Part shown: positions 12,172 through 39,269 of the stretch, piece after piece | Numbering within the stretch: position 1 is the first letter of the stretch | Layout of the letters: every line of letters begins with the position of its first letter | Sequence record: HE978309 | Origin: Enterobacteria phage GEC-3S | Direction: 5' to 3' (one strand) | Length of the DNA stretch: 64,000 nt | Notes under the pieces: model-generated | Database searches by the model: none | What the model saw: the letters and a program-made list of their open reading frames with translations, nothing else | Told to the model about the DNA's origin: nothing | Position numbers and translations under genes: made by a program

Positions 12172-12807
12172 TCAATCGAATGTAGAAAGCAAATGTTTTG
12201 TTTCTTTCAGTTGTCGTTCAAGATTTTTGCGTTTCTCTTTAAGTTGCATTTTAGCATTATTTCGCTCTCTTGTAACCTCTTTATCAATGCTCTTATTCCA
12301 GTTATCAATATCAGAATAAGTTGGCATACCCAATTCTAGACCTAATGCGGTTGGATGCAGGGTAACAGTCCATAAACCGCTAATCTTCTTAAACAGGTCG
12401 GGGTGTAGTGTACTATCTACATCTTCCGGTGTCAACTCTTTTTCTTCTTTCAGTGGTGGGATCTCGTCATATGGTTCCAGTGCATTTACTTTAATATCAG
12501 ATACCTCATCAAAGAATCCGCGTACATCCGCAGGAAATACACAAGCAATTTCCCAACCGCGATCACGCAGAGAAGTAATATTTTTCACTCCCCCACCATG
12601 TGTGATGATTGATGTGACATTGCCATCAAGGTCCACCGAATTTACGAGAAATGGCTTATCGTCTGTCAGATCATTATAAAACTGTGCTTCGGCTGTAGTC
12701 ATCTCCAGAAACAGATCTCGGATCGGACGACCATCAGGTGCGTTACCTTCCTTGAGAGTATAAAAGCGACTTACGATCCATTTTGGCGGTAAAGCATTAG
12801 CGATCAT
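12172..12807 (-). CDS. hypothetical protein (211 aa)
   Basis: ATG with SD TAGGAGA. Confidence 0.55.
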   Translation of the reverse strand: MIANALPPKWIVSRFYTLKEGNAPDGRPIRDLFLEMTTAEAQFYNDLTDDKPFLVNSVDLDGNVTSIITHGGGVKNITSLRDRGWEIACVFPADVRGFFDEVSDIKVNALEPYDEIPPLKEEKELTPEDVDSTLHPDLFKKISGLWTVTLHPTALGLELGMPTYSDIDNWNKSIDKEVTRERNNAKMQLKEKRKNLERQLKETKHLLSTFD

Positions 12808-12857: not shown

Positions 12858-14270
12858 TTAGAAAGTCATGTTATTTGCTAGCTCGTCGAGTTTTTCTCGT
12901 TTCTCGGCTTGCTGTGCGCTTTGCGGTTTAACTTGTGCATTCTCCTGATCTGCGATCTGGTTTGGTACTTCATACCAACGCTGATTGCCTTTTTTCACAC
13001 CAACGTTAAACCGTGAATAATAGTTCTTGTCACCGTAACGAGACTTGATCTGCTTCATGAGTTGAACGCCCATTTTAGCCAGGTCTTCGGTTTCGATAAC
13101 ACCCAACATAAAATCGGCTGTAGCCGGAAGACCTGCTGATTCAGCGGTATCACTCATGTTAAGGTCGGAAGCATCCCAACCCGCGCGGGTAGTCTGTGCC
13201 GCAGTCCAACCAACAACATCCCACTTAACAAAAAATCCTCGCAGTTCTTCCGCAATCGCCTTAACTAGTGTGTAACTATTTTCAGAGTATACACGCAAGC
13301 GAGACGATGCGCAAATCCCCAGATAGTCAACAATCACAACATCAGGTTTAAACTGTTTCTTGAGTCGCAATTCATTCATTAACGCCTCAAAGTGATTGGA
13401 GTTCGCGCCACCAGTCGGATACTGCTTGATCATCAATTTTCCAACCGGACGATCTCCGATCTTCTTATTCTTAACACGCTTCATACGTGCGGAATATTCC
13501 GCAAAAGAAACATTACCATTATCCAATTCATCTAATGTAATGTCAAGCAAGTTTGCGTCGATACGTTTGGCTACGACATGCTCTGCCATCTCCATTGAGA
13601 TATACAATACATCATAACCGCATTCCATATAATCCGCAGCAAGAGAACACAATCCAAGCGATTTACCAACATTTACACCAGCAAGCAACACATTTAGCGT
13701 TTTTCTTTCCGCCCCTCCTTTCGTGATTTTATTCAACATCGGCAGCTTAAACGGGATCTTATTCGCTTTAGTCTGATATAGCAAGAATCGTTTTTCAAAG
13801 TCATTAAACCAGTCATGACCTACATCAGAATCAAACGTAATGGATAGTGCTTCCTGCATGATCTCAGGAATAGCTCCCTCACTCGGCAATTTCTTATTCT
13901 GTTTCTCTTTTGGTAGTTGTGCGTTCGCCTGAATCTCTAGCGCCCGTGACATTGCATTATACATGGCACGGTCACGAATAAATTTTTCGGTTTCCTTCAT
14001 TAACCAATCAAGGTCTTCCGGTGTATTCTCCAGCGAATCGAGAAGAGTTTTAGCCCCTTCATATGTTGTCTGATTGCCTCTCTCCTTGTCCAAAGCAATC
14101 TGTAATGCAGTTGGCGTAGGAATATTGGAATATTCGTCTACGTGCTTTTTAATCAGCTTATAAATCAGTTTTTCTTCGTCTTCGGTGAAGTAGTCCGCTT
14201 TAAGGTGAGGCCATACATTCGTAAAGAATGCGCCATTGTAAATCAACTGTGAAAAGATAGTTTTAATCAT
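12858..14270 (-). CDS. 41: replicative DNA helicase (DnaB-like)
   Basis: 470 aa; Walker A GVNVGKS; T4 gp41-like; ATGA overlap with upstream gene. Confidence 0.9.
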   Translation of the reverse strand: MIKTIFSQLIYNGAFFTNVWPHLKADYFTEDEEKLIYKLIKKHVDEYSNIPTPTALQIALDKERGNQTTYEGAKTLLDSLENTPEDLDWLMKETEKFIRDRAMYNAMSRALEIQANAQLPKEKQNKKLPSEGAIPEIMQEALSITFDSDVGHDWFNDFEKRFLLYQTKANKIPFKLPMLNKITKGGAERKTLNVLLAGVNVGKSLGLCSLAADYMECGYDVLYISMEMAEHVVAKRIDANLLDITLDELDNGNVSFAEYSARMKRVKNKKIGDRPVGKLMIKQYPTGGANSNHFEALMNELRLKKQFKPDVVIVDYLGICASSRLRVYSENSYTLVKAIAEELRGFFVKWDVVGWTAAQTTRAGWDASDLNMSDTAESAGLPATADFMLGVIETEDLAKMGVQLMKQIKSRYGDKNYYSRFNVGVKKGNQRWYEVPNQIADQENAQVKPQSAQQAEKREKLDELANNMTF

Positions 14271-27697: not shown

Positions 27698-27717
27698 AAT
27701 AACCCTTTCGGGCTATT
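27698..27717 (-). other. RNA hairpin with GAAA tetraloop spanning the stop codon of the 489-aa gene
   Basis: AAUAGCCC-GAAA-GGGUUAUU on the minus-strand transcript only; no U-tract. Confidence 0.4.
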
Positions 27718-29182
27718 CCCCATTGCCATTATACTTTCTTTGCTTAGTTATCCACACTCTAACCATCTCTACTGATTCACCGTCAGACGGATCAAGAGTT
27801 TTTCCTTTTTTCTTCATGCGGTACTTAAATCCGTTAAATCTTGCATTCTCTTGCTCGTTAAAGTCGAACATCTTTTTAAATGATTTTCGCCCTTTACGCT
27901 CACCGCATTCTAGCGGAATCATTCGGTCTGTTATTACATTGGCATTAGGTAGAAACGTTTTTAGATAATCCACCAACGCCCAATCAGGAACATATAGATT
28001 AACATTCTCCTTGCTCTCGTTGTCTCTCAGGTTACAACGCAAACATAATTGAAATGCTGGTTCCAGATAATCAGACACATGACGCGCTTTCAAAAACTCG
28101 TTTGTCGGGAGATCGCAACTATTAGCAAGACCTTTTAAAATATCAATCTCCCATCGTTGAGGGTTAAAGCTGAACATCACAGCAACATTTTTATGATGAA
28201 TGTAAGAGTTAAGACCATAAGATCCGTAAGGTATCCGCTCACCAATACCATTTGTGCACGCTTCACGGTCCCGATTCACGGTATAAATGAAGTCATCACC
28301 ACATTCATTTTTAACCATATCAACAAGACGTTCAAAGGTATTGTTTGTTTCTGACTGGTGACGCGACCATCGTTCAGAGTCCGTCATAAGGATGATATTA
28401 ACTCTATCTGTATTTTTATACTCTTTGAAATATAGTCTGGATTCTAGCGCACTCGGAACAAAATCGCAATTTGCATAGTATCGTAGATACTTCCCACTAT
28501 ATGTATCAAAGAGATTTGCACATGCTATCGTAACCTTTTTAAAGTCTCCCCACGTACCGTGTTTGTTATCGTTCAAGAAAACAATTTTCGACCCATTCTT
28601 CCGGTGTCCTTCGTTATGTTTTACCATAACGTTGATTTTCTTCTCTAATAACGCCTCATAAAGCCCTCTAAGAGAAGAATCGATCATATCAGTACCATCC
28701 TTTGCACTTTCTATCTTTTCTTTGATAGCGGCCTTCTCAGAGTCTTTTAGAACTAAGTTCTGTAGGCATTCCGATTCGTCGGCGATTGGTTCGCAATGCT
28801 TCGTGATAAGTTCAAGATTAGACTTAAACGGATACTCATTAAATTCAACCAGTTGAGGAACTTCATCAATGTAAAGAGCATATTCACCAAACATTTTTGA
28901 ACGTTCCATATTAGATAACGCTGTATGTGTAATGAATATCACATCAGCACCGTCTTTAACTGATTGCATTATCGACGCTTGCACTGTCTTAAGGCTTCTT
29001 AGTCTTGTGCTATCAATCAAGACAGCACGACCGCCCATTCTTTTAAACTTATTGTAAGATTGTTCACTTAAAACACGAGATGGCGAAGCAATAACCGCTT
29101 TTTCTTTTGTCTCTAGGACGTGGGAAAGTATAGCATCAGTTTTCCCCGCCGCTGGCAATGCGATTAATGTTTCAATCTTCAT
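27713..29182 (-). CDS. uncharacterised P-loop NTPase (489 aa)
   Basis: ATG with TAATG overlap to upstream gene; Walker A ALPAAGKT at residues 9-16, Walker B-like LYIDEV near residue 105; large Cys/His-containing C-terminal region of unknown fold. Confidence 0.6.
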   Translation of the reverse strand: MKIETLIALPAAGKTDAILSHVLETKEKAVIASPSRVLSEQSYNKFKRMGGRAVLIDSTRLRSLKTVQASIMQSVKDGADVIFITHTALSNMERSKMFGEYALYIDEVPQLVEFNEYPFKSNLELITKHCEPIADESECLQNLVLKDSEKAAIKEKIESAKDGTDMIDSSLRGLYEALLEKKINVMVKHNEGHRKNGSKIVFLNDNKHGTWGDFKKVTIACANLFDTYSGKYLRYYANCDFVPSALESRLYFKEYKNTDRVNIILMTDSERWSRHQSETNNTFERLVDMVKNECGDDFIYTVNRDREACTNGIGERIPYGSYGLNSYIHHKNVAVMFSFNPQRWEIDILKGLANSCDLPTNEFLKARHVSDYLEPAFQLCLRCNLRDNESKENVNLYVPDWALVDYLKTFLPNANVITDRMIPLECGERKGRKSFKKMFDFNEQENARFNGFKYRMKKKGKTLDPSDGESVEMVRVWITKQRKYNGNGE

Positions 29183-29490: not shown

Positions 29491-29649
29491 TTACTTAATG
29501 ATACTTACTTTACCAGATCCATGACAATGAGCGCAACACCCATCACCACGCAATCCTGTTCCGTTACAGTGTTTACACTTCTTCAACGGTAAAGCCATTA
29601 TAGCAAATAAAGCAATAATGAACACCGAAACTAAATTCTCAATAATCAT
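29491..29649 (-). CDS. small membrane-anchored zinc-finger protein (52 aa) with two CxxCxGxG motifs
   Basis: hand-read MIIENLVSVFIIALFAIMALPLKKCKHCNGTGLRGDGCCAHCHGSGKVSIIK; start overlaps end of NrdH-like gene; not in track. Confidence 0.4.
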   Translation of the reverse strand: MIIENLVSVFIIALFAIMALPLKKCKHCNGTGLRGDGCCAHCHGSGKVSIIK

Positions 29650-29908
29650 AAATCGCCCTCAGTTCTTTATAGCCTCCAATGTGCTCGTTGTCAATGAATA
29701 TCTGGGGGTATACATACCGGAGGCTCTTTGAGTTCAGCCTCCCCGCCAGTTCTTCAATCATATCACGGTCGGGAATAATGTCAACCCCGACCTGCTTGAA
29801 TACTGGTTTAAGTGTATACGGAATACCCAGATCATCCAGTAGCTTCATTGCACTAATACAACCATAACAATGATAAGCCTCTTTCGGTATACCGTATATC
29901 TCGATCAT
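29639..29908 (-). CDS. glutaredoxin-like protein (NrdH/NrdC family)
   Basis: 89 aa; CYGC redox motif and C-terminal PQIFID..HIGGY; ATGA overlap with upstream gene. Confidence 0.6.
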   Translation of the reverse strand: MIEIYGIPKEAYHCYGCISAMKLLDDLGIPYTLKPVFKQVGVDIIPDRDMIEELAGRLNSKSLRYVYPQIFIDNEHIGGYKELRAIYDY

Positions 29909-30381
29909 TTCTCAGCCTTTAATCTTTCTAGTTCTTCTTCCAGTTCCTTGATCCGTTGGTCACGTTCAAAGTCACGCTGTAACTTAGTGGCGAATACTCG
30001 TTTAAACTGATTGTAATCATCGATTTTAAACACTTCTTCTTCGCCATAGCGACGCACAGAAACTTCGTAGTTATTGAAGAATTGTTGCATCATTGCTTCG
30101 GATGATAGCTCTGCTGATACCACTTTAAAATATTGATCTTCTGTAGGCGAAAACCAATTACAAGCATAAAGATAAACCTTTTCATTGTCTGGGCACTGGT
30201 AAGCCTTACCATCGATTTCAATCACAGAAACATATTCAGGTATAGTAGATGAATCAATAGCTAAGACTTTAAACTGACGGTCCCCGATAAACTCAGAGAT
30301 CACACGATTCGCATCACTGGTTGCAAAGGCTTTACGCGCTTGTTCGTTTTTCCACTGATAGGTCATACCAACAACAAACAT
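29905..30381 (-). CDS. paralog family A protein (158 aa)
   Basis: start chosen at ATG 30381; N-domain motif GMTYQWK plus C-terminal coiled coil. Confidence 0.45.
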   Translation of the reverse strand: MFVVGMTYQWKNEQARKAFATSDANRVISEFIGDRQFKVLAIDSSTIPEYVSVIEIDGKAYQCPDNEKVYLYACNWFSPTEDQYFKVVSAELSSEAMMQQFFNNYEVSVRRYGEEEVFKIDDYNQFKRVFATKLQRDFERDQRIKELEEELERLKAEK

Positions 30382-30382
30382 A

Positions 30383-31207
30383 TTACCAACCTCGCTCTTT
30401 ACCAATCAAAAATTCAACTTCACGACGTTTAATGTCTTCTTGAAGGTCTTTAATCTTCTGGCGATCTTGCATGATTTCATCCATCTTGTCAAGTGCCGCA
30501 ATGAAATCATCGAAACGTTCAAAGGTTTTACCTTCATTTGCTTCGCCAAATTTAACCATTGTCAGGCCGTAACGACTACTAAACAGACGTTTCAACTGTC
30601 CAACGATTTTAGAATCAGTGGTTATAACTTCCAATTCTTCTACTTCACGAAAGAATTTTCTATCAGAATCAATAAACCAGCTAGTTCCTTTATGGTTACT
30701 ATCTTCGGTTGCACTCATTAGAGTATGGTCTTTACCATCAATTTCAATTACATCAATTTGCCCACATGGACGAACATTTTTAACAGTAAAAGGTCTATAA
30801 TTTATTGCTCGTGCAATAACATAATTAAGATTAGATACGTTTTCAGCATAATGACAGAAGTCGGTCATAGCCTTATCATCTTTCCAAGTATAAGTTTTAC
30901 CAACTTCCCATTTCTGGGGAACTTCTTCAACTTCACGAAAGAATTTTCTATCAAATGGACTAAAGAAATATGTTGCAGTCCAAATGTCTTTTCCTGTAGC
31001 AGTTTTCGCCGTATGATAAACACCGTCTAGCTCTATTGCATCAATCCAACCGTTACCCTCGATCTCGATGATGGTAAATGGCTTGTCACCAATAGCTGCA
31101 CTAATATCGCTGTTAAGTGGAGAAAGAACACCTTCTCCGTTAGTAATAAACTCAGTTTTAGCGTTTACATCTTTCCAAGTGTAAGTTTTACCAATTTCCC
31201 ATTTCAT
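30383..31207 (-). CDS. paralog family A protein with internal tandem duplication (274 aa)
   Basis: ATG with SD AAGGGGA; two copies of W-E-x-GKTYTWKD ... DRKFFREVEE module. Confidence 0.55.
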   Translation of the reverse strand: MKWEIGKTYTWKDVNAKTEFITNGEGVLSPLNSDISAAIGDKPFTIIEIEGNGWIDAIELDGVYHTAKTATGKDIWTATYFFSPFDRKFFREVEEVPQKWEVGKTYTWKDDKAMTDFCHYAENVSNLNYVIARAINYRPFTVKNVRPCGQIDVIEIDGKDHTLMSATEDSNHKGTSWFIDSDRKFFREVEELEVITTDSKIVGQLKRLFSSRYGLTMVKFGEANEGKTFERFDDFIAALDKMDEIMQDRQKIKDLQEDIKRREVEFLIGKERGW

Positions 31208-31219
31208 AATATATTCCCC

Positions 31220-31705
31220 TTAACCGATTTTATCAAGTTCGTTTAATGCTTTCTCAGCTTCCTGTATAGCTTGCACTCTTTCCGGCATTTTGTCAAGAAA
31301 ATCTTTCAACTCTTCAAAACTGGAGATATGACGCAAGGCATTAGCACCGATAGCCGCATGTGATTTGCATTCAAAGCGAATTTTATAATTATCCATAGCC
31401 AATTTGAGAAGGTCTATTAGATCATATTCACGACCAGGCAATAAAACTTCTTTGAAGCACGCTCGGTCGCCATCGGAAAACCATATATTATCACCAACAT
31501 CGATAGAACTAATATAATCCCCTTCGTGATTATAGATTGAACGTACATTACCCCAACGGTCTACAGTAGCGACAGTAAATGGTTTATCTAGATATGTAAA
31601 CACACCATCAATATTAGGTTTTTGTTCGTAACGCCAACAATCACGCAAAATACGCTTTTCGTACTCACCAACCAACTTATATGTCTTCCCTTCTTCCCAT
31701 TTCAT
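31220..31705 (-). CDS. paralog family A protein (161 aa)
   Basis: start chosen at ATG 31705 (MKWEEGKTY...). Confidence 0.5.
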   Translation of the reverse strand: MKWEEGKTYKLVGEYEKRILRDCWRYEQKPNIDGVFTYLDKPFTVATVDRWGNVRSIYNHEGDYISSIDVGDNIWFSDGDRACFKEVLLPGREYDLIDLLKLAMDNYKIRFECKSHAAIGANALRHISSFEELKDFLDKMPERVQAIQEAEKALNELDKIG

Positions 31706-31709
31706 AATA

Positions 31710-32237
31710 TCATCTCTCATTTTTGATACGTGATTCTAATTGGATCATACGGTCGCGCGTTTGCTTATATTCTCGGATATCACCGATCCGGCTAGGCATA
31801 CCATCCAGTACGCTCTTAATCCCTTCTAGGGTAGTGATTTTAGCAATACTATTATGCAATCCCATCTTATCGATTAACTGAATGTCGTAGGCTTCCATAA
31901 GCAGACCCAGACGTTCTAAAGTTAGGTCTTCTTCTTTTTCTTCCGATTCTGGAATCTTAGGTTCAATAGTAACTTCGGTAAAGAAACGACGCTCGCCCGA
32001 CCAAAACCACACACCGGAACAGCCAATAGGGGATTCTTTTAACGTCATAGAGTCGTAACCACTGCCGATAATAGTAATTTCTCTAACATCACCATCATCG
32101 TCAATGTCTTCTACCCTAAACGGGCGACCAGCCAACAGGTCAACAATACATCTGTTAATAGACGACGAAAATTTAGTCAGTTCGGCTTTCGACGCTTCGC
32201 ATTCAATCTTGTAAGTTTTACCAACTTCCCATTCCAT
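31710..32237 (-). CDS. paralog family A protein (175 aa)
   Basis: start at ATG 32237 (MEWEVGKTY...) with SD GAGGTGA. Confidence 0.5.
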   Translation of the reverse strand: MEWEVGKTYKIECEASKAELTKFSSSINRCIVDLLAGRPFRVEDIDDDGDVREITIIGSGYDSMTLKESPIGCSGVWFWSGERRFFTEVTIEPKIPESEEKEEDLTLERLGLLMEAYDIQLIDKMGLHNSIAKITTLEGIKSVLDGMPSRIGDIREYKQTRDRMIQLESRIKNER

Positions 32238-32247
32238 AATAATCACC

Positions 32248-32751
32248 TCAAATAATTTTCACTGGAATACTATTAACAATCTTGTATTGTACTTGATTGT
32301 CAGACCCCCGCCACGGCTTCTTCGTTGGCATATCTTTAATATAACGACCATCGATGAACATGTCAACTGATTCTACAATTTTTCTTTGCTCATCATTCAA
32401 TTGGTCAAGGGTATAACCAGACCATAGCCAAATATCTTTATTTGGCATCCATGATTTTACTTCATCGATGATCCGCTGTACACCCTTTAAATTGCGTTTA
32501 TACAGTGGATCGCCACCTAAGAATGTTAGCCCCTGAATAAAATCAGGTCTAAGCAGATCCAGAATCAATCCCATTGTATCATCGGTGAATGGTTTCCCGT
32601 TCTTAGGATTGAGTATACTGGAATTAAAGCAACCATCACATGCGTGTGAACATCCGGTAACGTAAAGGGAGACTCTCACTCCCTCACCGTTAACCATATC
32701 ACAATCTTTAATATCGGCATAGCGTAGTTTGCCGTATGTATCAGAACTCAT
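32248..32751 (-). CDS. nrdG: anaerobic ribonucleotide reductase activating protein (radical SAM)
   Basis: CSHACDGC (CX3CX2C) cluster; start at ATG 32751; T4 synteny next to nrdD. Confidence 0.85.
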   Translation of the reverse strand: MSSDTYGKLRYADIKDCDMVNGEGVRVSLYVTGCSHACDGCFNSSILNPKNGKPFTDDTMGLILDLLRPDFIQGLTFLGGDPLYKRNLKGVQRIIDEVKSWMPNKDIWLWSGYTLDQLNDEQRKIVESVDMFIDGRYIKDMPTKKPWRGSDNQVQYKIVNSIPVKII

Positions 32752-32893
32752 ATTCAATTACCCCGAACTCGTTTACAATCTGCGCTTTATAGTAACCACC
32801 GCGAGATGCCAATAGATAAGCTGGGCTTAGGTATTCGTATTCACGGATTTCTACTTGTGCGTTTTCAGTTTCCCAAATCAGTAAAGTCCACAT
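32741..32893 (-). CDS. possible small protein (50 aa)
   Basis: hand-read ORF with strong SD AGGAGAATCAAAT, ATGA-coupled to nrdG; downstream of promoter 32936-32964. Confidence 0.3.
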   Translation of the reverse strand: MWTLLIWETENAQVEIREYEYLSPAYLLASRGGYYKAQIVNEFGVIEYEF

Positions 32894-32968: not shown

Positions 32969-33496
32969 TTATTTTAAATTTTTTCGAATGTATTCAGACC
33001 ATTCCTTCCCTGTCATTTCGGACCCGTTCTGGAAACTGAAATATTCATACGGCATCGAGTCAAGATAAAACAGGATCATACATCGCGCCATATAATACCA
33101 ATCACGATTAAAGTAAACTACGTTATCACCAGTACCATCAACCCCTTTATCATAACCATCGCGGGTACGGGCAACCCATTGAATAGTATCATTTTTCTCA
33201 CGGATAGTAACAGGTTCCCAATATCCAGCACATCCAGCATGACCACACGAACAAGTAAGGAAATATTGTCCTTTTGCTTTGTTGTCATCCCATTCACGAT
33301 GGATTGGTTCGATCTCGTGAAACAGTGCCAAACAATCATGATTATGCAACACTGGCTTACCATCAATCAATGCATGGAATGTATACAAACGACCAGTAGA
33401 CAAATAGCTATCCTCACGCTCAACCAGTTCAATAGCAATCTTTTTAGCTCGTTCTTTGTGTCGCTGTGCTTTACGCTTACGGTTTAATGATTTCAT
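32969..33496 (-). CDS. hypothetical protein (175 aa)
   Basis: start at ATG 33496 with SD GAGGTGA. Confidence 0.5.
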   Translation of the reverse strand: MKSLNRKRKAQRHKERAKKIAIELVEREDSYLSTGRLYTFHALIDGKPVLHNHDCLALFHEIEPIHREWDDNKAKGQYFLTCSCGHAGCAGYWEPVTIREKNDTIQWVARTRDGYDKGVDGTGDNVVYFNRDWYYMARCMILFYLDSMPYEYFSFQNGSEMTGKEWSEYIRKNLK

Positions 33497-33513
33497 ATTC
33501 ACCTCACACATTA

Positions 33514-34059
33514 TCAAATGTCGCGATATAGTACATTATGAAAATGAGAACTTGCATTACCAATATTGTAGATAATAAATTCTTCATCCGGCGCTTGCGC
33601 TACAAATTGAGTATGAGCAACCGCCACAACCTTAAAAATACGATCCGTGATCTTGTGTTTAATTTCTGCTCCTACTTCCATAGGAACATATTCATTTGTT
33701 TCTGTTTCAGTCGCAAAACAGCCATCTTCTTCATAAGCACGAACAAATCGATCGCAATCAGTACGCTTAACAAATTCAAGAGTATACAATTCTCGCGAAT
33801 TGTCGGTATAGACCAATACAGAATTATTCTGATAGCGAATCACATACAGGTTATTATCATCGTCAATTACGCAAAAGCTACGGATTTGTGTTCCTTCTCC
33901 TTTACTCCAGCAGATATTAACCACCGTTCCTCTAATAAAAAAACTTTCCTTTAAATTAAAACTAGCCAATGTGCTAGCGTGCATTTTAACAACAACACCA
34001 TCGCCAATTTCCAGTTTACGAAGTTTAACTTCTTTGCTCAGTACACAAAACATCATCAT
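33514..34059 (-). CDS. hypothetical protein (181 aa)
   Basis: three consecutive ATGs after SD GAGAGGA. Confidence 0.5.
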   Translation of the reverse strand: MMMFCVLSKEVKLRKLEIGDGVVVKMHASTLASFNLKESFFIRGTVVNICWSKGEGTQIRSFCVIDDDNNLYVIRYQNNSVLVYTDNSRELYTLEFVKRTDCDRFVRAYEEDGCFATETETNEYVPMEVGAEIKHKITDRIFKVVAVAHTQFVAQAPDEEFIIYNIGNASSHFHNVLYRDI

Positions 34060-34091: not shown

Positions 34092-34119
34092 ATTATACAT
34101 TAGCTAATCATGTTGTCAA
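34092..34119 (-). promoter_or_regulatory. early promoter (TTGACA-N16-TATAAT)
   Basis: directly downstream of terminator 34137-34156. Confidence 0.5.
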
Positions 34120-34136
34120 CACCCCAAAACGAAAAA

Positions 34137-34156
34137 GCCGACCCTTTCGGATCGGC
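34137..34156 (-). terminator. intrinsic terminator after nrdD
   Basis: GCCGAUCC-GAAA-GGGUCGGC then UUUUUCGUUUU on minus strand. Confidence 0.55.
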
Positions 34157-34162
34157 TGAAAA

Positions 34163-36070: not shown

Positions 36071-36565
36071 TTATTTTACCAGTTCTGCTAATTCTTTTTC
36101 TTTAGCTTCCAGTTCAGCCTTAAGCTGTTTAATCTCTTGTCGCTTCTTATTAGCGGCTTCTTGCTTACTATTTCGGATAACCTGATCTAGATACAACTCC
36201 CAATCCTGAATATTTTTGATAATATAACCGTCAACATTAATTGGTCGGATATTTAGTACAGCTTCCAGTTTAGTCGCAAAAACTTTAATTGCTGGGGTGA
36301 AGTATTCATATTCGTTATCTTCAAACCAATAACCTAGACTTGCATTATCAATACGAAGACGAAGTTCAAGATCAAGGTCTTTATCTTCGGTGTAAAGATC
36401 TTTCACCTGACCCAGCGAACTAACAACAACTTTAAAACGAATTTTATCTACACCACCAAACACATCAGTAAGTATACCAGCAATTGAGCTATTAGCGCAA
36501 GATTGGTCGCTGAATGCGTCAAGGTTTTCTTTAGTTACAGTATACCAAACATCTTGTACCCACAT
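36071..36565 (-). CDS. hypothetical protein with C-terminal coiled coil (164 aa)
   Basis: ATG with SD GAGAGGATTATATT. Confidence 0.5.
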   Translation of the reverse strand: MWVQDVWYTVTKENLDAFSDQSCANSSIAGILTDVFGGVDKIRFKVVVSSLGQVKDLYTEDKDLDLELRLRIDNASLGYWFEDNEYEYFTPAIKVFATKLEAVLNIRPINVDGYIIKNIQDWELYLDQVIRNSKQEAANKKRQEIKQLKAELEAKEKELAELVK

Positions 36566-36595
36566 AATATAATCCTCTCGTTGTTAAGTGGGAGT

Positions 36596-36623
36596 ATTAT
36601 AGCATACTCCCTTCGCATGTCAA
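36596..36623 (-). promoter_or_regulatory. early promoter (TTGACA-N16-TATAAT); -10 inside GGGAGTA/TACTCCC palindrome
   Basis: minus-strand read. Confidence 0.55.
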
Positions 36624-37798
36624 GCACTAACTTTTTTCTTTACTGCTTTCACCTTCTGGCGAATTGCTCGAATCTCTTCGATCTCTTTTTCAGTATCTTT
36701 AACAATTTCTTTGCGATTCTGAATATCTTTATCGAGATTATCATCAAGTTTAGGCAGCATGTCAATCAAGAACTTTTTAAGGTCTTTCAGGTTGCGAATA
36801 ACAGTACCTTCACCCATTACCGCCACGCCTACACCATCCGGCAGATCACCAAACAGTTTAACCAGTTCAGACAGATGATCATGATCTTCTAGTGCTTCTT
36901 CCGGTTCAGATGGCAGTTCAACAAAGTAATAACGTTCATCATTGCTGATCAGGTGATACCAGCAAAGCCCAAAAGATTTAGGAGTATATTCTACACCACC
37001 AACTTCAACTGCGTCAACACTTCCGAAAGAATCTACTTTAGTTACCTTAAATCCATGTTCCAGCGTTTTAATAATTTCAATAACATGACTGGATACGGTT
37101 TCAGTATTAAACCAATGAGGCAAATTATGTGGATTTGGCTTGTATCGTTCGCCTACTTTAAATCTCTGACCACGCTCTTGCATACGGACATATTCAACTC
37201 GCGTGATTTCCGCGAAGTATTCAAATTCGCTACCGTCAAACAAGCAATTCCATTGATCACAAAAACGATCCGCCTTGACGGTTTCACCTTTCGCGGTGAT
37301 CATGGTAGCTGATCCGTGCAATTCTTCTTCAACTAAAAAGCCATATTCTACAAAATCAACAAGTTTCATGGCTTCTTTGTGCTCTGGGTCATGCTCTCCC
37401 CAGAATCGCTTAAATTCTTGCAAACCTTCTGGGGTAAACGAATAACATTTACCTTTTTCAAAGTAAGTCGGCATTGCATCCTCTTTCTTGTTCATCGCTT
37501 CGTATGCCTCTTTTGAGATACGTTTAAAGTATTTGCGCTCATTGTGCATAATCATAGTAGCCCAATAATAAACGATATCCTCAGCGGAATAAACTACATC
37601 TCCAGCTTCAATAGTAATAACATGACCGTTGTCATCTTTTTCTAATACTTTAAAGCCCTTTTCTACGATTTCAGCAACCCGAATATGACCACGGCGCGAA
37701 GCATCGGTCAGAATAATTGAATAGCGAGAAAAGTCTAGAAACTCATCTTTACCACCTTCACGGAATGCATAGTAATGACCTTCAAAGAATTTAGCCAT
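36620..37798 (-). CDS. paralog family B protein (392 aa, multi-module)
   Basis: ATG with SD; repeated GFKVL...ERKYFKRI-type modules. Confidence 0.55.
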   Translation of the reverse strand: MAKFFEGHYYAFREGGKDEFLDFSRYSIILTDASRRGHIRVAEIVEKGFKVLEKDDNGHVITIEAGDVVYSAEDIVYYWATMIMHNERKYFKRISKEAYEAMNKKEDAMPTYFEKGKCYSFTPEGLQEFKRFWGEHDPEHKEAMKLVDFVEYGFLVEEELHGSATMITAKGETVKADRFCDQWNCLFDGSEFEYFAEITRVEYVRMQERGQRFKVGERYKPNPHNLPHWFNTETVSSHVIEIIKTLEHGFKVTKVDSFGSVDAVEVGGVEYTPKSFGLCWYHLISNDERYYFVELPSEPEEALEDHDHLSELVKLFGDLPDGVGVAVMGEGTVIRNLKDLKKFLIDMLPKLDDNLDKDIQNRKEIVKDTEKEIEEIRAIRQKVKAVKKKVSA

Positions 37799-37829
37799 AA
37801 TATAATCCTCTCGTTGTTTAGATGGGAGT

Positions 37830-37858
37830 ATCTTACTACTCCCGTTTCATCATGTCAA
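37830..37858 (-). promoter_or_regulatory. early promoter (TTGACA-N17-TAAGAT) inside GGGAGTAG/ACTCCC palindrome
   Basis: minus-strand read. Confidence 0.5.
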
Positions 37859-38421
37859 GCGTTAAATGACTTTTGGATCTCTTTCAGTTCAGCTACTTTA
37901 TAGGCGCTGAATTTAGCGTAGGTATCATGTCGAATAATTTCACTTTCAAGAAAGGTTTCCAGCCGAGATCTATTTTCAATAAGGAACTCTTTCAGGTCTT
38001 CCGCGTTCTTGATAAAGATTTTATTGTCAGTAATGTCATCTTCAATCGCAAAGGAGATAGAGCGAACTTTACCAAACAAGTTAATCAGATCTTCCAGAGA
38101 TTCTTCTTTCTTAACTGGTTTCATTTCTTCAAACTGCTTTTTAGTGATGCGTTTAAAGTATTTGCGCTCGTTTGCAGCAATCAGAACAGATGCACCTTCA
38201 TACCCATGAGTTTCTACCAGATACACACGCCCCATCGCATCAACAGTGAGAACTTTAAAGCCGTTACAAAGCACGTCATACAAGAACTTATTATGTTGCG
38301 GACATCGTTTGATAAATTCTGCGGCTGTTTCTGCACTACGGAAAGTATAGTAACGACCTCGTTCAAAAACAGCATCATTTGAAGACTTAGCCGGATACAC
38401 TTTATACATTTTCTGTACCAT
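37855..38421 (-). CDS. paralog family B protein (188 aa)
   Basis: start at ATG 38421 with SD GAGGATTATATT; motif NERKYFKRITKKQFEEM. Confidence 0.5.
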   Translation of the reverse strand: MVQKMYKVYPAKSSNDAVFERGRYYTFRSAETAAEFIKRCPQHNKFLYDVLCNGFKVLTVDAMGRVYLVETHGYEGASVLIAANERKYFKRITKKQFEEMKPVKKEESLEDLINLFGKVRSISFAIEDDITDNKIFIKNAEDLKEFLIENRSRLETFLESEIIRHDTYAKFSAYKVAELKEIQKSFNA

Positions 38422-38435
38422 AATATAATCCTCTA

Positions 38436-38708
38436 TCATTTCACTAATTGAACAGCACGAAACAGAATGCGGTCACACGGAAGCAGCATAAATTCCCAAC
38501 GCGGATCAAAGTCTTTAGCGGTATATGTTTTCCCATCAACCGAGATTTCACTTACATAACCAATAGGTGACACTTTAAGAACAGTAAATCCATTCTTGAT
38601 TGCTTCGTAGGTATCTTTCAGACCTTCGTAGTCGTCCTCTAAGAAGTCTTTATGTGCTTGCTCAGATTTAAAAACATAGGCCACACCGGATTTAAACATC
38701 TTACGCAT
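38436..38708 (-). CDS. paralog family B protein (90 aa)
   Basis: start at ATG 38708 with SD AAGGAGAATCAACA; track extension overlaps promoter. Confidence 0.45.
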   Translation of the reverse strand: MRKMFKSGVAYVFKSEQAHKDFLEDDYEGLKDTYEAIKNGFTVLKVSPIGYVSEISVDGKTYTAKDFDPRWEFMLLPCDRILFRAVQLVK

Positions 38709-38739
38709 TGTTGATTCTCCTTCTTGATTAGATGGGAGC

Positions 38740-38768
38740 ATTTTACTACTCCCATTTCTTATTGTCAA
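38740..38768 (-). promoter_or_regulatory. early promoter (TTGACA-N17-TAAAAT) inside GGGAGTAG/GCTCCC palindrome
   Basis: minus-strand read. Confidence 0.5.
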
Positions 38769-38771
38769 CTA

Positions 38772-39245
38772 CTATCTTAATCTTTGTATGAATTGTTTCT
38801 TATACTTCTTCGTGATTTCTTCTCGTGTATCAGCGTCGCAGTAATCGAAACCTTCTGCGTCCATAATAGCAACCATCTCCGCTCGTGTCAAGCGTGAAAA
38901 TCGTTTTACTTTATCAACAGCATATTGAGGATGTAAATGATTGTTGGTGTAGTCTCCTTTGATGTAATTAACATAGTTTGTAGCCCAAACAACGAAATCA
39001 GCACCTAAAGCACCAACACCAAACCGTTTAAAGTCTCCGGTCAACGATCCTTCTAGGCGGTTGCAACACGAATGAAGCAATCCCCTTACGCGGCCTTGCC
39101 CTTTCCCATCTAGATCGTGGTCGTGGTCAAGATGGTTTTTGCTCATATCCTCAAAAAGTGGCAATTGACAAAGGGGGCAAATGCCCCCCTGTTTTTCGAA
39201 TAGTTCTTGTTTGTACTCTTTAGCACTCTTAGCAGTCAGTAACAT
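38772..39245 (-). CDS. 49: recombination endonuclease VII (Holliday junction resolvase)
   Basis: 157 aa from ATG 39245 with SD GGAGGGTG; zinc site CPLCQ...CCNRLEG and HLDHDHD as in T4 gp49. Confidence 0.85.
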   Translation of the reverse strand: MLLTAKSAKEYKQELFEKQGGICPLCQLPLFEDMSKNHLDHDHDLDGKGQGRVRGLLHSCCNRLEGSLTGDFKRFGVGALGADFVVWATNYVNYIKGDYTNNHLHPQYAVDKVKRFSRLTRAEMVAIMDAEGFDYCDADTREEITKKYKKQFIQRLR

Positions 39246-39269
39246 AAATTCACCCTCCAAAGAAGGTAT

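What the first reader, a model, noticed from the sequence alone, without database searches (positions are those of the whole stretch)
29905..32237. Tandem array of four paralogous genes with an internally duplicated member (family A)
Four consecutive genes between the NrdH-like gene and nrdG share an N-terminal module beginning W-E-x-GKTY-x-W and ending around FF.EV, followed by a helical/coiled-coil tail. The 274-aa member carries two copies of the module (MKWEIGKTYTWKD...DRKFFREVEE twice). Such rapidly duplicating arrays in phage early regions often encode host-takeover or anti-defence factors with diversifying specificity.
Basis: seen in the sequence. Interest (0 to 1): 0.5.

Follow-up and report, generated by a model that had tools for sequence, protein, structure and literature searches.

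The report
GoF-like paralog array in RB49-type phage
Four neighbouring genes of an RB49-like E. coli phage are real, old paralogs of the phage T4 protein GoF: a small SH3-like barrel "head" on a conserved helical "tail". Related phages swap the heads like cassettes, but what the proteins do is still unknown.

Summary
Window 29905-32237 (minus strand) holds four tightly packed genes (175, 161, 274 and 158 aa) between nrdG and nrdH of a Krischvirus (RB49-like) phage. All four share a ~90-aa N-terminal module, and the 274-aa protein carries two copies.

The module is not an orphan. It is the N-terminal domain of T4 GoF, in the GoF/Frd.2/MotB.1 family described in 2025 as "LSm-like". Profile matches run in both directions. 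AlphaFold models give a five-stranded barrel whose nearest solved folds are SH3-like (FeoA, Mind-bomb repeats, IdeR/SloR), not Hfq.

The window holds five more family genes, making nine genes and twelve modules in all.

Across eight related phages the flanking genes are 96-100% identical. Each head occurs in two deeply diverged allele types (39-68% identity, dS near saturation), while tails stay 87-100% identical. Near-identical DNA at the module ends explains the head swapping and the gain or loss of one G3 module.

"Rapidly duplicating" is not supported, and no dN/dS exceeds 1. A host-takeover or anti-defence role remains untested.

Most likely these are acidic, non-enzymatic, dimerising adaptor proteins whose variable heads bind a host or phage partner linked to mRNA fate. 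I rate it a new member of a known kind, of moderate interest.

The parts
31710..32237 (-). G1, 175 aa (RB49p051 ortholog): one GoF-like SH3-like head (aa 1-92), a disordered linker, and an alpha/beta tail ending in a long helix.
   Evidence: ORF. Shine-Dalgarno site and ATG. phrog_5347 E 5e-67. AF2 model with pLDDT 76.7.
31220..31705 (-). G2, 161 aa from MKWEE (the ORF can also start at 31720). RB49p050 sits in the same slot but carries the alternative head allele.
   Evidence: Head only 46% identical to RB49's; tail 94% identical.
30383..31207 (-). G3, 274 aa (RB49p049 ortholog): head G3a (30920-31207), head G3b (30632-30919) and tail (30383-30631).
   Evidence: Two HMM domains. G3a/G3b 50% identical, E 4e-27. 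AF2 model shows two copies of the same fold.
29905..30381 (-). G4, 158 aa from MFVVG (the ORF extends to a TTG at 30405). RB49p048 ortholog. Its stop overlaps the nrdH start.
31149..31205 (.). Conserved 5' end of module G3a, a direct repeat of 30858-30914 (the 5' end of G3b). The first ~40 nt are 37/40 identical.
   Evidence: The AV108 G3 protein is the product expected from a crossover here.
30858..30914 (.). Conserved 5' end of module G3b, partner of 31149-31205.
30923..30964 (.). Conserved 3' end of module G3a (encodes ..DRKFFREVEE), a direct repeat of 30635-30676.
   Evidence: P0057 and P0059 (G3a head fused to the tail) are the products expected from a crossover here.
30635..30676 (.). 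Conserved 3' end of module G3b, partner of 30923-30964.
32338..32366 (-). Sigma-70-like promoter match (11 of 12) inside the 3' end of nrdG, about 100 nt upstream of G1. A 12-of-12 match at 34119-34092 lies further upstream, after the nrdD terminator.
   Evidence: Consensus scan only. Not evidence of function.
36620..37798 (-). More distant family member, 392 aa, with three heads and a tail. Belongs to phrog_8944, annotated 'goF mRNA metabolism modulator'.
37855..38439 (-). Family member, 194 aa, one head plus a tail (phrog_8944).
38436..38708 (-). Family member, 90 aa, head only with no tail (phrog_16115).
36071..36565 (-). Family member, 164 aa. Borderline in the first HMM pass (E 2e-3); also hits phrog_3710, which GoF hits too.
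12172..12807 (-). Family member, 211 aa, immediately downstream of the gene 41-type helicase (12858-14270).

Best explanation
IDENTITY (shown). The four genes are old paralogs in the superfamily of phage T4 GoF (comC-alpha). Each protein has one or two ~90-aa heads, a disordered linker, and a ~75-aa tail ending in a long helix. The heads are SH3-like five-stranded beta-barrels with two helices inserted between strands 1 and 2. No conserved polar or catalytic residues exist; only core residues are invariant (Y9, F40, F86, near-invariant V42 and G49). These are therefore binding scaffolds, not enzymes.

POPULATION BEHAVIOUR (shown). Among closely related phages the heads occur as discrete, deeply diverged alleles that assort independently, while the tails and flanking genes stay nearly identical. 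The DNA at both ends of each module is kept near-identical. Those short homologies are where heads are exchanged, and where one G3 module is lost or gained in 291-bp steps.

MECHANISM (inferred, about 35-40% likely). The proteins are made early, from sigma-70-type promoters and by translational coupling with nrdG and nrdH. They dimerise through the tail helix. Their acidic, variable heads bind a protein or ribonucleoprotein partner of the host or the phage. By analogy with GoF, that partner most plausibly belongs to mRNA turnover or Rho-dependent termination. The tail would supply a constant function and the head would choose the target. Head polymorphism would then reflect variation in the targets among host strains.
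For: Family membership:
- An HMM of the five heads aligns with T4 GoF residues 3-89 end to end. E was 2.5e-9 among 4 sequences and 1.2e-10 among the ORFs of seven loci.
- G1-G4 hit GoF's own phrog_622 (E 3e-18 to 3e-4). GoF hits their phrog_5347 (E 6.5e-7).
- Frd.2 also matches (E 1.5e-4).

Fold:
- AF2 models have pLDDT 77 with barrel cores at 85-92.
- Foldseek's best hit is the tandem Mib-repeat domain (E 6e-4), followed by FeoA, SloR and ScaR.
- These are the same neighbours reported for GoF in PMC12152347.

Other support:
- All four proteins are acidic, pI 4.8-5.2.
- Heads are 39-68% identical between allele types, tails 87-100%, flanks 96-100%. Nine genomes hold ten head types.
- Module-end DNA repeats exist, and the single-module G3 variants are the predicted recombination products.
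- GoF and MotB.1 run as monomer plus dimer. GoF is abundant early, at an estimated ~20,000 copies per cell.
Against: - No function is known for wild-type GoF, MotB.1 or Frd.2. All are dispensable in the laboratory.
- No binding partner is known. The published GoF pull-down recovered essentially only GoF.
- Early expression rests on consensus promoter matches alone.
- Dimerisation through the tail is inferred from a predicted helix. Published AlphaFold3 homodimer models of GoF were not confident.
- Head polymorphism could simply reflect the mosaic periphery of T4-type genomes. The neighbouring genes p054 and p055 also show divergent alleles.
Confidence: 0.55

Rival explanations
1. RNA chaperones or mRNA stabilisers. 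The heads are LSm-like RNA-binding domains, as proposed for GoF, which bind phage mRNAs directly and protect them from decay.
For: - GoF(D25Y) raises reporter expression post-transcriptionally by lengthening RNA half-life. The rho-suppressor sites D25 and G84 both lie in the head.
- The position aligned with GoF G84, just before the conserved FF, is K or R in 5 of the 12 window modules. The residue before it is R in 8 of 12. So these heads naturally carry the charge that the G84R suppressor introduces.
Against: - Wild-type GoF and MotB.1 have little effect on the reporter. D25Y is interpreted as a gain of function.
- All array proteins and each of their heads are net negative, pI 4.6-5.5.
- There is no N-terminal Sm helix; the helices are inserted after strand 1.
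- No Pfam LSM match.
Confidence: 0.2
2. Counter-defence repertoire. Each head neutralises or decoys a variable host immunity protein, and the alleles are kept by frequency-dependent selection.
For: - The genes lie among early-type genes and are packed in an operon-like way.
- Heads exist as discrete, independently assorting alleles on a nearly clonal background.
- Module number is polymorphic.
- The proteins are small, acidic and non-enzymatic.
Against: - No comparison gave dN/dS above 1. Head divergence is old, with saturated dS.
- The four-slot layout is fixed.
- No family member has a reported anti-defence activity in the literature searched.
- Neighbouring unrelated genes p054 and p055 show similar allele replacement, so the pattern is not specific to this family.
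Confidence: 0.2
3. Accessory or scaffold proteins of the nucleotide-synthesis machinery. This reading rests on both gene clusters being embedded among nrdD, nrdG, nrdH and nrdC.
For: - Position: G1-G4 lie between nrdG and nrdH. The second cluster (36071-38768) lies between nrdD and the endonuclease VII-like and nrdC-like genes.
- T4 frd.2 lies next to frd.
Against: - T4 goF and motB.1 lie among unrelated early genes, and another window member lies next to the gene 41-type helicase.
- Heads vary between phages whose Nrd proteins are about 98% identical. That is hard to reconcile with binding the conserved Nrd enzymes.
Confidence: 0.04
4. The shared motifs are chance matches, or the ORFs are not genes.
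For: None found.
Against: - Pairwise E-values reach 4e-27, and full-length PHROG matches reach E 1e-92.
- The ORFs are intact in all eight Krischvirus genomes examined in detail. Tail dN/dS is at most about 0.2 in comparisons with dS above 0.1.
- The AF2 models are confident.
Confidence: 0.01

Closest known systems
T4 GoF (comC-alpha) and the GoF/Frd.2/MotB.1 'LSm-like fold' family (Kim et al. 2025, PMC12152347)
   Same: - The ~90-aa N-terminal five-stranded barrel is homologous, with the same signature: an aromatic-E-x-G-K-x-Y start and an FF-x-E-V end.
- The domain plan is the same: head, flexible linker, variable C-terminal domain.
- The proteins are likewise small, acidic and encoded among early-type genes.
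- The structural neighbours are the same (FeoA, IdeR/SloR).
   Different: - The C-terminal part differs. Here it is helix, two strands, helix, then a ~28-residue helix, placed in phrog_5347. GoF has a short acidic linker and a small beta/alpha C-terminal domain, placed in phrog_622.
- Here the genes form a four-gene tandem array with a two-head member, and a three-head member lies nearby. The paper describes three dispersed single-head T4 genes and mentions neither arrays, nor duplication, nor RB49-type phages.
- The host phage is a Krischvirus, outside the subfamily Tevenvirinae.
FeoA and the SH3-like domain of DtxR/IdeR/SloR regulators; Mind bomb 1 Mib repeats
   Different: - Sequence identity is only 6-17%, and no profile-level relationship was found.
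- The two-helix insertion after strand 1 is specific to the phage family.
- Per PMC12152347, GoF lacks the metal-binding histidines.
Hfq / Sm-LSm proteins
   Same: Both are five-stranded, strongly bent antiparallel sheets of similar size. The published name of the GoF family refers to this resemblance.
   Different: - The heads lack the N-terminal helix.
- No Sm1/Sm2 sequence match was found.
- No Hfq or LSm entry appears among the top structural hits.
- The heads are acidic rather than basic.
- No ring oligomer is predicted for GoF in the literature.

Membership tests
GoF/Frd.2/MotB.1 phage family (PMC12152347) | Sequence-profile relationship of the N-terminal domain to T4 GoF | tested here: met
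   The head HMM matches GoF residues 3-89 over its full length, with E 2.5e-9 and 1.2e-10. PHROG hits run both ways. Frd.2 gives E 1.5e-4; MotB.1 is only marginal at E 6e-3.
GoF/Frd.2/MotB.1 phage family (PMC12152347) | N-terminal bent five-stranded antiparallel beta-sheet domain of about 80-90 residues | tested here: met
   The AF2 models show strands at 8-11, 40-45, 51-56, 64-67 and 86-89 in G1, and the same pattern twice in G3. FeoA and IdeR-type neighbours match those reported for GoF.
GoF/Frd.2/MotB.1 phage family (PMC12152347) | Flexible linker to a C-terminal domain that differs between subfamilies | tested here: met
   pLDDT falls below 50 at G1 residues 95-102 and G3 residues 192-197. 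The tail is not the GoF-type C-terminal domain.
GoF/Frd.2/MotB.1 phage family (PMC12152347) | Early expression and high abundance during infection | tested here: inconclusive
   Only sigma-70-type consensus matches upstream (34119-34092 at 12/12; 32366-32338 at 11/12) and tight gene packing. No expression data.
GoF/Frd.2/MotB.1 phage family (PMC12152347) | Self-association (dimer) and dispensability in laboratory hosts | not testable with these tools
   This needs biochemistry and genetics. The long C-terminal helix only suggests dimerisation.
GoF/Frd.2/MotB.1 phage family (PMC12152347) | Effect on mRNA stability (shown only for the mutant GoF D25Y) | not testable with these tools
   The alignment shows K/R at the GoF G84 position in 5 of 12 modules. 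This is suggestive only.
Sm/LSm/Hfq | N-terminal alpha-helix followed by five strands carrying the Sm1/Sm2 motifs; ring-forming oligomer; detectable structural similarity to Hfq or LSm | tested here: not met
FeoA / SH3-like barrel superfold | Structural superposition on solved SH3-like domains | tested here: met
Tandem paralog array generated by duplication | Adjacent, co-oriented genes with significant mutual similarity | tested here: met
   The G3 internal repeat has a 291-nt period with near-identical ends.

The most novel reading that the evidence does not exclude
The heads form a swappable specificity repertoire. On this reading Krischvirus phages keep a fixed set of 'tail' chassis genes and exchange SH3-like heads through short conserved homology arms built into the coding sequence. 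That would retarget an abundant early dimeric adaptor to variable host factors such as immunity proteins or RNA-decay and termination components. It would be a protein-level cassette system comparable in logic to tail-fibre tip swapping, but for intracellular takeover.
Probability: 0.15. Interest if true: 0.7.

Novelty: new member of a known kind. Interest (0 to 1): 0.4.

Why it matters
GoF has been a puzzle since the rho/nusD suppressor genetics of the 1970s and 80s, and its family was recognised only in 2025. Two points follow from this locus.

First, the family is much larger in RB49-type phages than in T4: at least nine genes and twelve modules in 64 kb, against the three genes reported for T4.

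Second, natural variation already separates a constant tail from a variable head. That gives a ready-made experimental handle, because swapping or deleting heads and looking for host-range or mRNA phenotypes becomes a direct test.

The results also suggest that 'LSm-like' may be the wrong label. The fold evidence here points to protein-binding SH3-like domains. If the proteins turn out to be ordinary dispensable accessory genes, the locus is still a clean example of module exchange through conserved coding-sequence ends.

Tried and rejected
- Pfam gave no significant hit for G1-G4, for the five other window members, or for GoF itself. Only Frd.2 has a Pfam family, PF03197.
- The word-indexed protein search returned only close Krischvirus relatives. 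Even with a 12-module profile it gave just 19 hits.
- The exhaustive profile search of 1.84 billion representatives found only 82 hits at E <= 1e-3. The large multi-stretch hits are Big_2-type repeat proteins that match a short V-x-x-V-D-x-x-G-x-V hairpin motif; I rejected them as chance.
- An HMM of the four tails did not detect the tails of the second cluster. Pairwise BLAST between tails is mostly negative. Tail homology among G1-G4 therefore rests on full-length phrog_5347 coverage and colinear full-length alignments. For the second cluster it rests only on residues 212-377 of the 392-aa protein matching phrog_5347.
- I considered gene conversion between slots as the source of alternative heads and rejected it. 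In four of the five slots the alternative allele is closest to its own slot's allele; the alternative G3b head is about equally distant from G3b (39%) and G3a (38%).
- I considered positive selection, but no comparison gave dN/dS above 1 and dS is saturated in the heads.
- RB49 positions 114-164 kb contain no further module at E <= 1. Positions 64-114 kb were not scanned.
- The chimera P0069 (G1 head on a G3 tail) comes from a k-mer metagenome assembly. It could be an assembly artefact across the 31+ nt repeats, so I did not use it as evidence.
- The afdb50 fold library was unavailable.
- Literature searches for RB49 paralog families or hyperplastic regions found nothing specific.
Full report
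WHAT THE WINDOW IS. The region is 93-99% identical in DNA to about 57 RB49-like E. coli and Shigella phages (Krischvirus, Straboviridae). It is 98.6% identical to phages MIZ2, MIZ3 and MIZ6 and 98.2% to RB49. Almost all genes are on the minus strand.

CHECK OF THE OBSERVATION. Four minus-strand ORFs lie between nrdG (32248-32757) and the NrdH-like glutaredoxin (29639-29908):
- G1: 31710-32237, 175 aa
- G2: 31220-31705, 161 aa
- G3: 30383-31207, 274 aa
- G4: 29905-30381, 158 aa

They correspond to RB49p051 through RB49p048, all annotated as hypothetical. G1 starts at the ATG at 32237, behind a GAGGTGA Shine-Dalgarno site that overlaps the nrdG stop. Gaps between the genes are 1-12 nt, and the G4 stop overlaps the nrdH start. 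The layout therefore looks like one translationally coupled unit.

Pairwise BLASTP shows that the similarity is real. G3a and G3b are 50% identical (E 4e-27). G1/G2 gives E 1e-14 over 163 residues, G1/G3b E 8e-12 and G3a/G4 E 5e-10. G1 and G2 are linked to G4 only through G3. All four match PHROG family 5347 over its full 165 positions, with E 1e-59 to 1e-92.

WHAT THE MODULE IS. Pfam has nothing. The weaker PHROG hits included families labelled 'goF mRNA metabolism modulator'. [quoted passage not shown] An HMM built from only the five heads aligns with T4 GoF residues 3-89 end to end, at 25.7 bits and E 2.5e-9. The broader 12-module HMM gives E 1.2e-10 for GoF and 1.5e-4 for Frd.2 among the ORFs of seven loci.

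The relationship also holds in the other direction. GoF's own family is phrog_622 (E 5e-38), which G1-G4 hit at E 3e-18 to 3e-4. GoF in turn hits phrog_5347 at E 6.5e-7.

The GoF family was described in 2025 (Kim et al., PMC12152347). [quoted passage not shown] They have variable C-terminal domains, are dispensable in the laboratory, and run as monomer plus dimer. GoF is abundant early, at about 20,000 copies per cell. Only the mutant GoF(D25Y) stabilises a gene-41 leader reporter mRNA; wild-type function is unknown. That paper does not mention RB49-type phages, arrays or duplication.

STRUCTURE. An AlphaFold2 model of G1 used a 15-sequence alignment and reached pLDDT 76.7, with barrel blocks at 84-92. 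It shows strand 1, two helices, strands 2-4, a short helix and strand 5. A disordered linker follows at residues 95-102. The tail is helix, strand, strand, helix, then a 28-residue helix. The G3 model (pLDDT 77) repeats the same head twice.

In BFVD there are 63 matches at E <= 1e-3. Among the hits listed with a name, nearly all are from T4-type phages of many enterobacterial and Aeromonas hosts, and one is annotated GoF.

THE FAMILY IS BIGGER THAN THE FINDING. The head HMM finds five more genes in the window:
- 36620-37798: 392 aa, three heads
- 37855-38439: 194 aa
- 38436-38708: 90 aa, head only
- 36071-36565: 164 aa
- 12172-12807: 211 aa, next to the gene 41-type helicase

First-pass E-values ranged from 1e-9 to 2e-3. 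The total is nine genes and twelve modules in 64 kb. The 392-aa and 194-aa proteins belong to phrog_8944, already labelled goF-like. RB49 positions 114-164 kb hold no further copy.

Worldwide the family is small. There are 82 profile hits among 1.84 billion representative proteins, mostly 76-392 aa with one to three heads. A Yersinia T4-type phage has a two-head member at the goF position, between dexA and gene 39.

VARIATION BETWEEN PHAGES. I compared the window with eight Krischvirus genomes. The flanking proteins (the 489-aa protein, 55.2, NrdH, NrdG) are 96-100% identical. Each of G1-G4 falls into two classes, about 95-99% or about 68-77% identical.

Splitting the proteins shows that the divergence sits in the heads. 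Heads are 39-68% identical between classes, while tails remain 87-100% identical. Clustering gives ten head types in nine genomes. The types assort independently between slots. In four of the five slots the alternative allele is closest to its own slot's allele rather than to another slot's; the alternative G3b head is about equally distant from G3b and G3a.

Between classes the heads have dN 0.26-0.61 and dS 0.8-2.1. For the alternative alleles of G1, G2 and G3 the tails have dN about 0.04 and dS 0.04-0.4. The G4 alternative-allele tails are more diverged at synonymous sites (dN up to 0.06, dS up to 0.95). These are therefore old alleles moved by recombination, not fast evolution in place, and no comparison gave dN/dS above 1.

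HOW HEADS MOVE. At the DNA level G3a and G3b are 37/40 identical over their first ~40 nt and 33/34 identical over their last ~35 nt. Their centres are only about 50% identical. These ends are direct repeats 288-291 nt apart, and the 5' motif recurs at the starts of G1 and G2.

Phage AV108 has a 177-aa G3 made of the first 13 residues of G3a joined to the G3b body. That is the product of a crossover in the 5' repeat. P0057 and P0059 (178 aa, found on contigs up to about 168 kb) have the G3a body joined to the tail, the product of a crossover in the 3' repeat. The conserved module ends therefore act as built-in homology arms for unit loss, unit gain and head replacement. An apparent G1-head/G3-tail chimera (P0069) comes from a k-mer assembly and may be an artefact.

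HOW IT MOST LIKELY WORKS. The following points are shown:
- The proteins are non-enzymatic scaffolds; only hydrophobic core positions are invariant.
- They are acidic, pI 4.8-5.2, and every head is net negative.
- The head is variable and the tail conserved.

The mechanism is inferred. I think the proteins are made early, dimerise through the long tail helix, and use the heads to bind a protein or ribonucleoprotein partner. The GoF genetics points to RNA turnover or Rho-dependent termination as the affected process. Two observations favour protein binding over direct RNA binding: the nearest folds are protein-binding SH3-like domains, and the proteins are acidic. I put about 0.9 on the family assignment and about 0.35-0.4 on this mechanism.

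The RNA-chaperone rival keeps some weight. The position aligned with the GoF suppressor site G84 is K or R in 5 of 12 modules, and the preceding residue is R in 8 of 12.

The counter-defence reading fits the allele pattern but has no direct support. It is further weakened because the unrelated neighbours p054 and p055 show similar allele replacement.

VERDICT. The genes are new members of a recently recognised family (GoF), with a distinct tail, a tandem and multi-head organisation, and a clear head-cassette polymorphism that has not been described. 'Rapid duplication' is not supported, and the function remains open. Interest is moderate.

Noticed in passing
window 36071-38768 (minus strand): A second tandem cluster of four GoF-family genes lies between nrdD and the endonuclease VII-like gene (38772-39260). 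It includes a 392-aa protein with three heads and a 90-aa head-only protein. Two of the four are already labelled 'goF mRNA metabolism modulator' in PHROGs (phrog_8944).
   Followed up: partly
window 12172-12807 (minus strand): A 211-aa GoF-family member sits immediately downstream of the gene 41-type replicative helicase (12858-14270). This is curious because the only known GoF phenotype concerns gene 41 mRNA. A 211-aa ECD7 protein that matched the G1 model in BFVD, probably its ortholog, is named 'Dc2'.
   Followed up: no
window 32969-33517 and 33514-34059 (minus strand; RB49p054 and RB49p055): These two unrelated hypothetical genes between nrdD and nrdG also exist as sharply divergent alleles in some relatives (51% and 61-76% identity) on the same near-identical background. 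Allele replacement is therefore not unique to the GoF-like genes. The 181-aa ORF at 33514-34059 looks by eye like two repeated beta-rich units.
   Followed up: no
window 34092-34157 (minus strand): A strong terminator-like hairpin (34157-34136, 9 bp stem plus a T-run) lies right after nrdD. A perfect 12/12 sigma-70 promoter match follows at 34119-34092. Another 12/12 match lies at 36623-36596, upstream of the 164-aa family member.
   Followed up: no
window 29491-29649 (minus strand): A 52-aa ORF with a hydrophobic N-terminal segment followed by CxxCxGxG...CxxCxGxG, which resembles a DnaJ-type zinc finger. It is conserved next to nrdH in all relatives examined.
   Followed up: no
window 27713-29182 (minus strand): A 489-aa protein, 98-100% conserved among the Krischvirus genomes examined, has an N-terminal P-loop-like motif (PAAGKT). 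Its only precomputed Pfam hit is a weak DEAD-helicase match on its metagenomic counterpart in L013. It is annotated as hypothetical in all records seen.
   Followed up: no
L007 (Yersinia phage MHG19) 3574-4747: At the T4 goF position (between dexA and gene 39) this Tevenvirinae phage has a 143-aa member followed by a two-head 246-aa member. Tandem and multi-head GoF genes therefore also occur outside Krischvirus.
   Followed up: partly
L013 4467-4938 (metagenome contig SRR11185258): In this contig the nrdG-nrdH interval holds only a 154-aa G1/G3 chimera plus two short ORFs (64 and 105 aa) where G4 should be. It is either a collapsed array with a frameshifted G4 or a k-mer assembly artefact across the repeats.
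   Followed up: no
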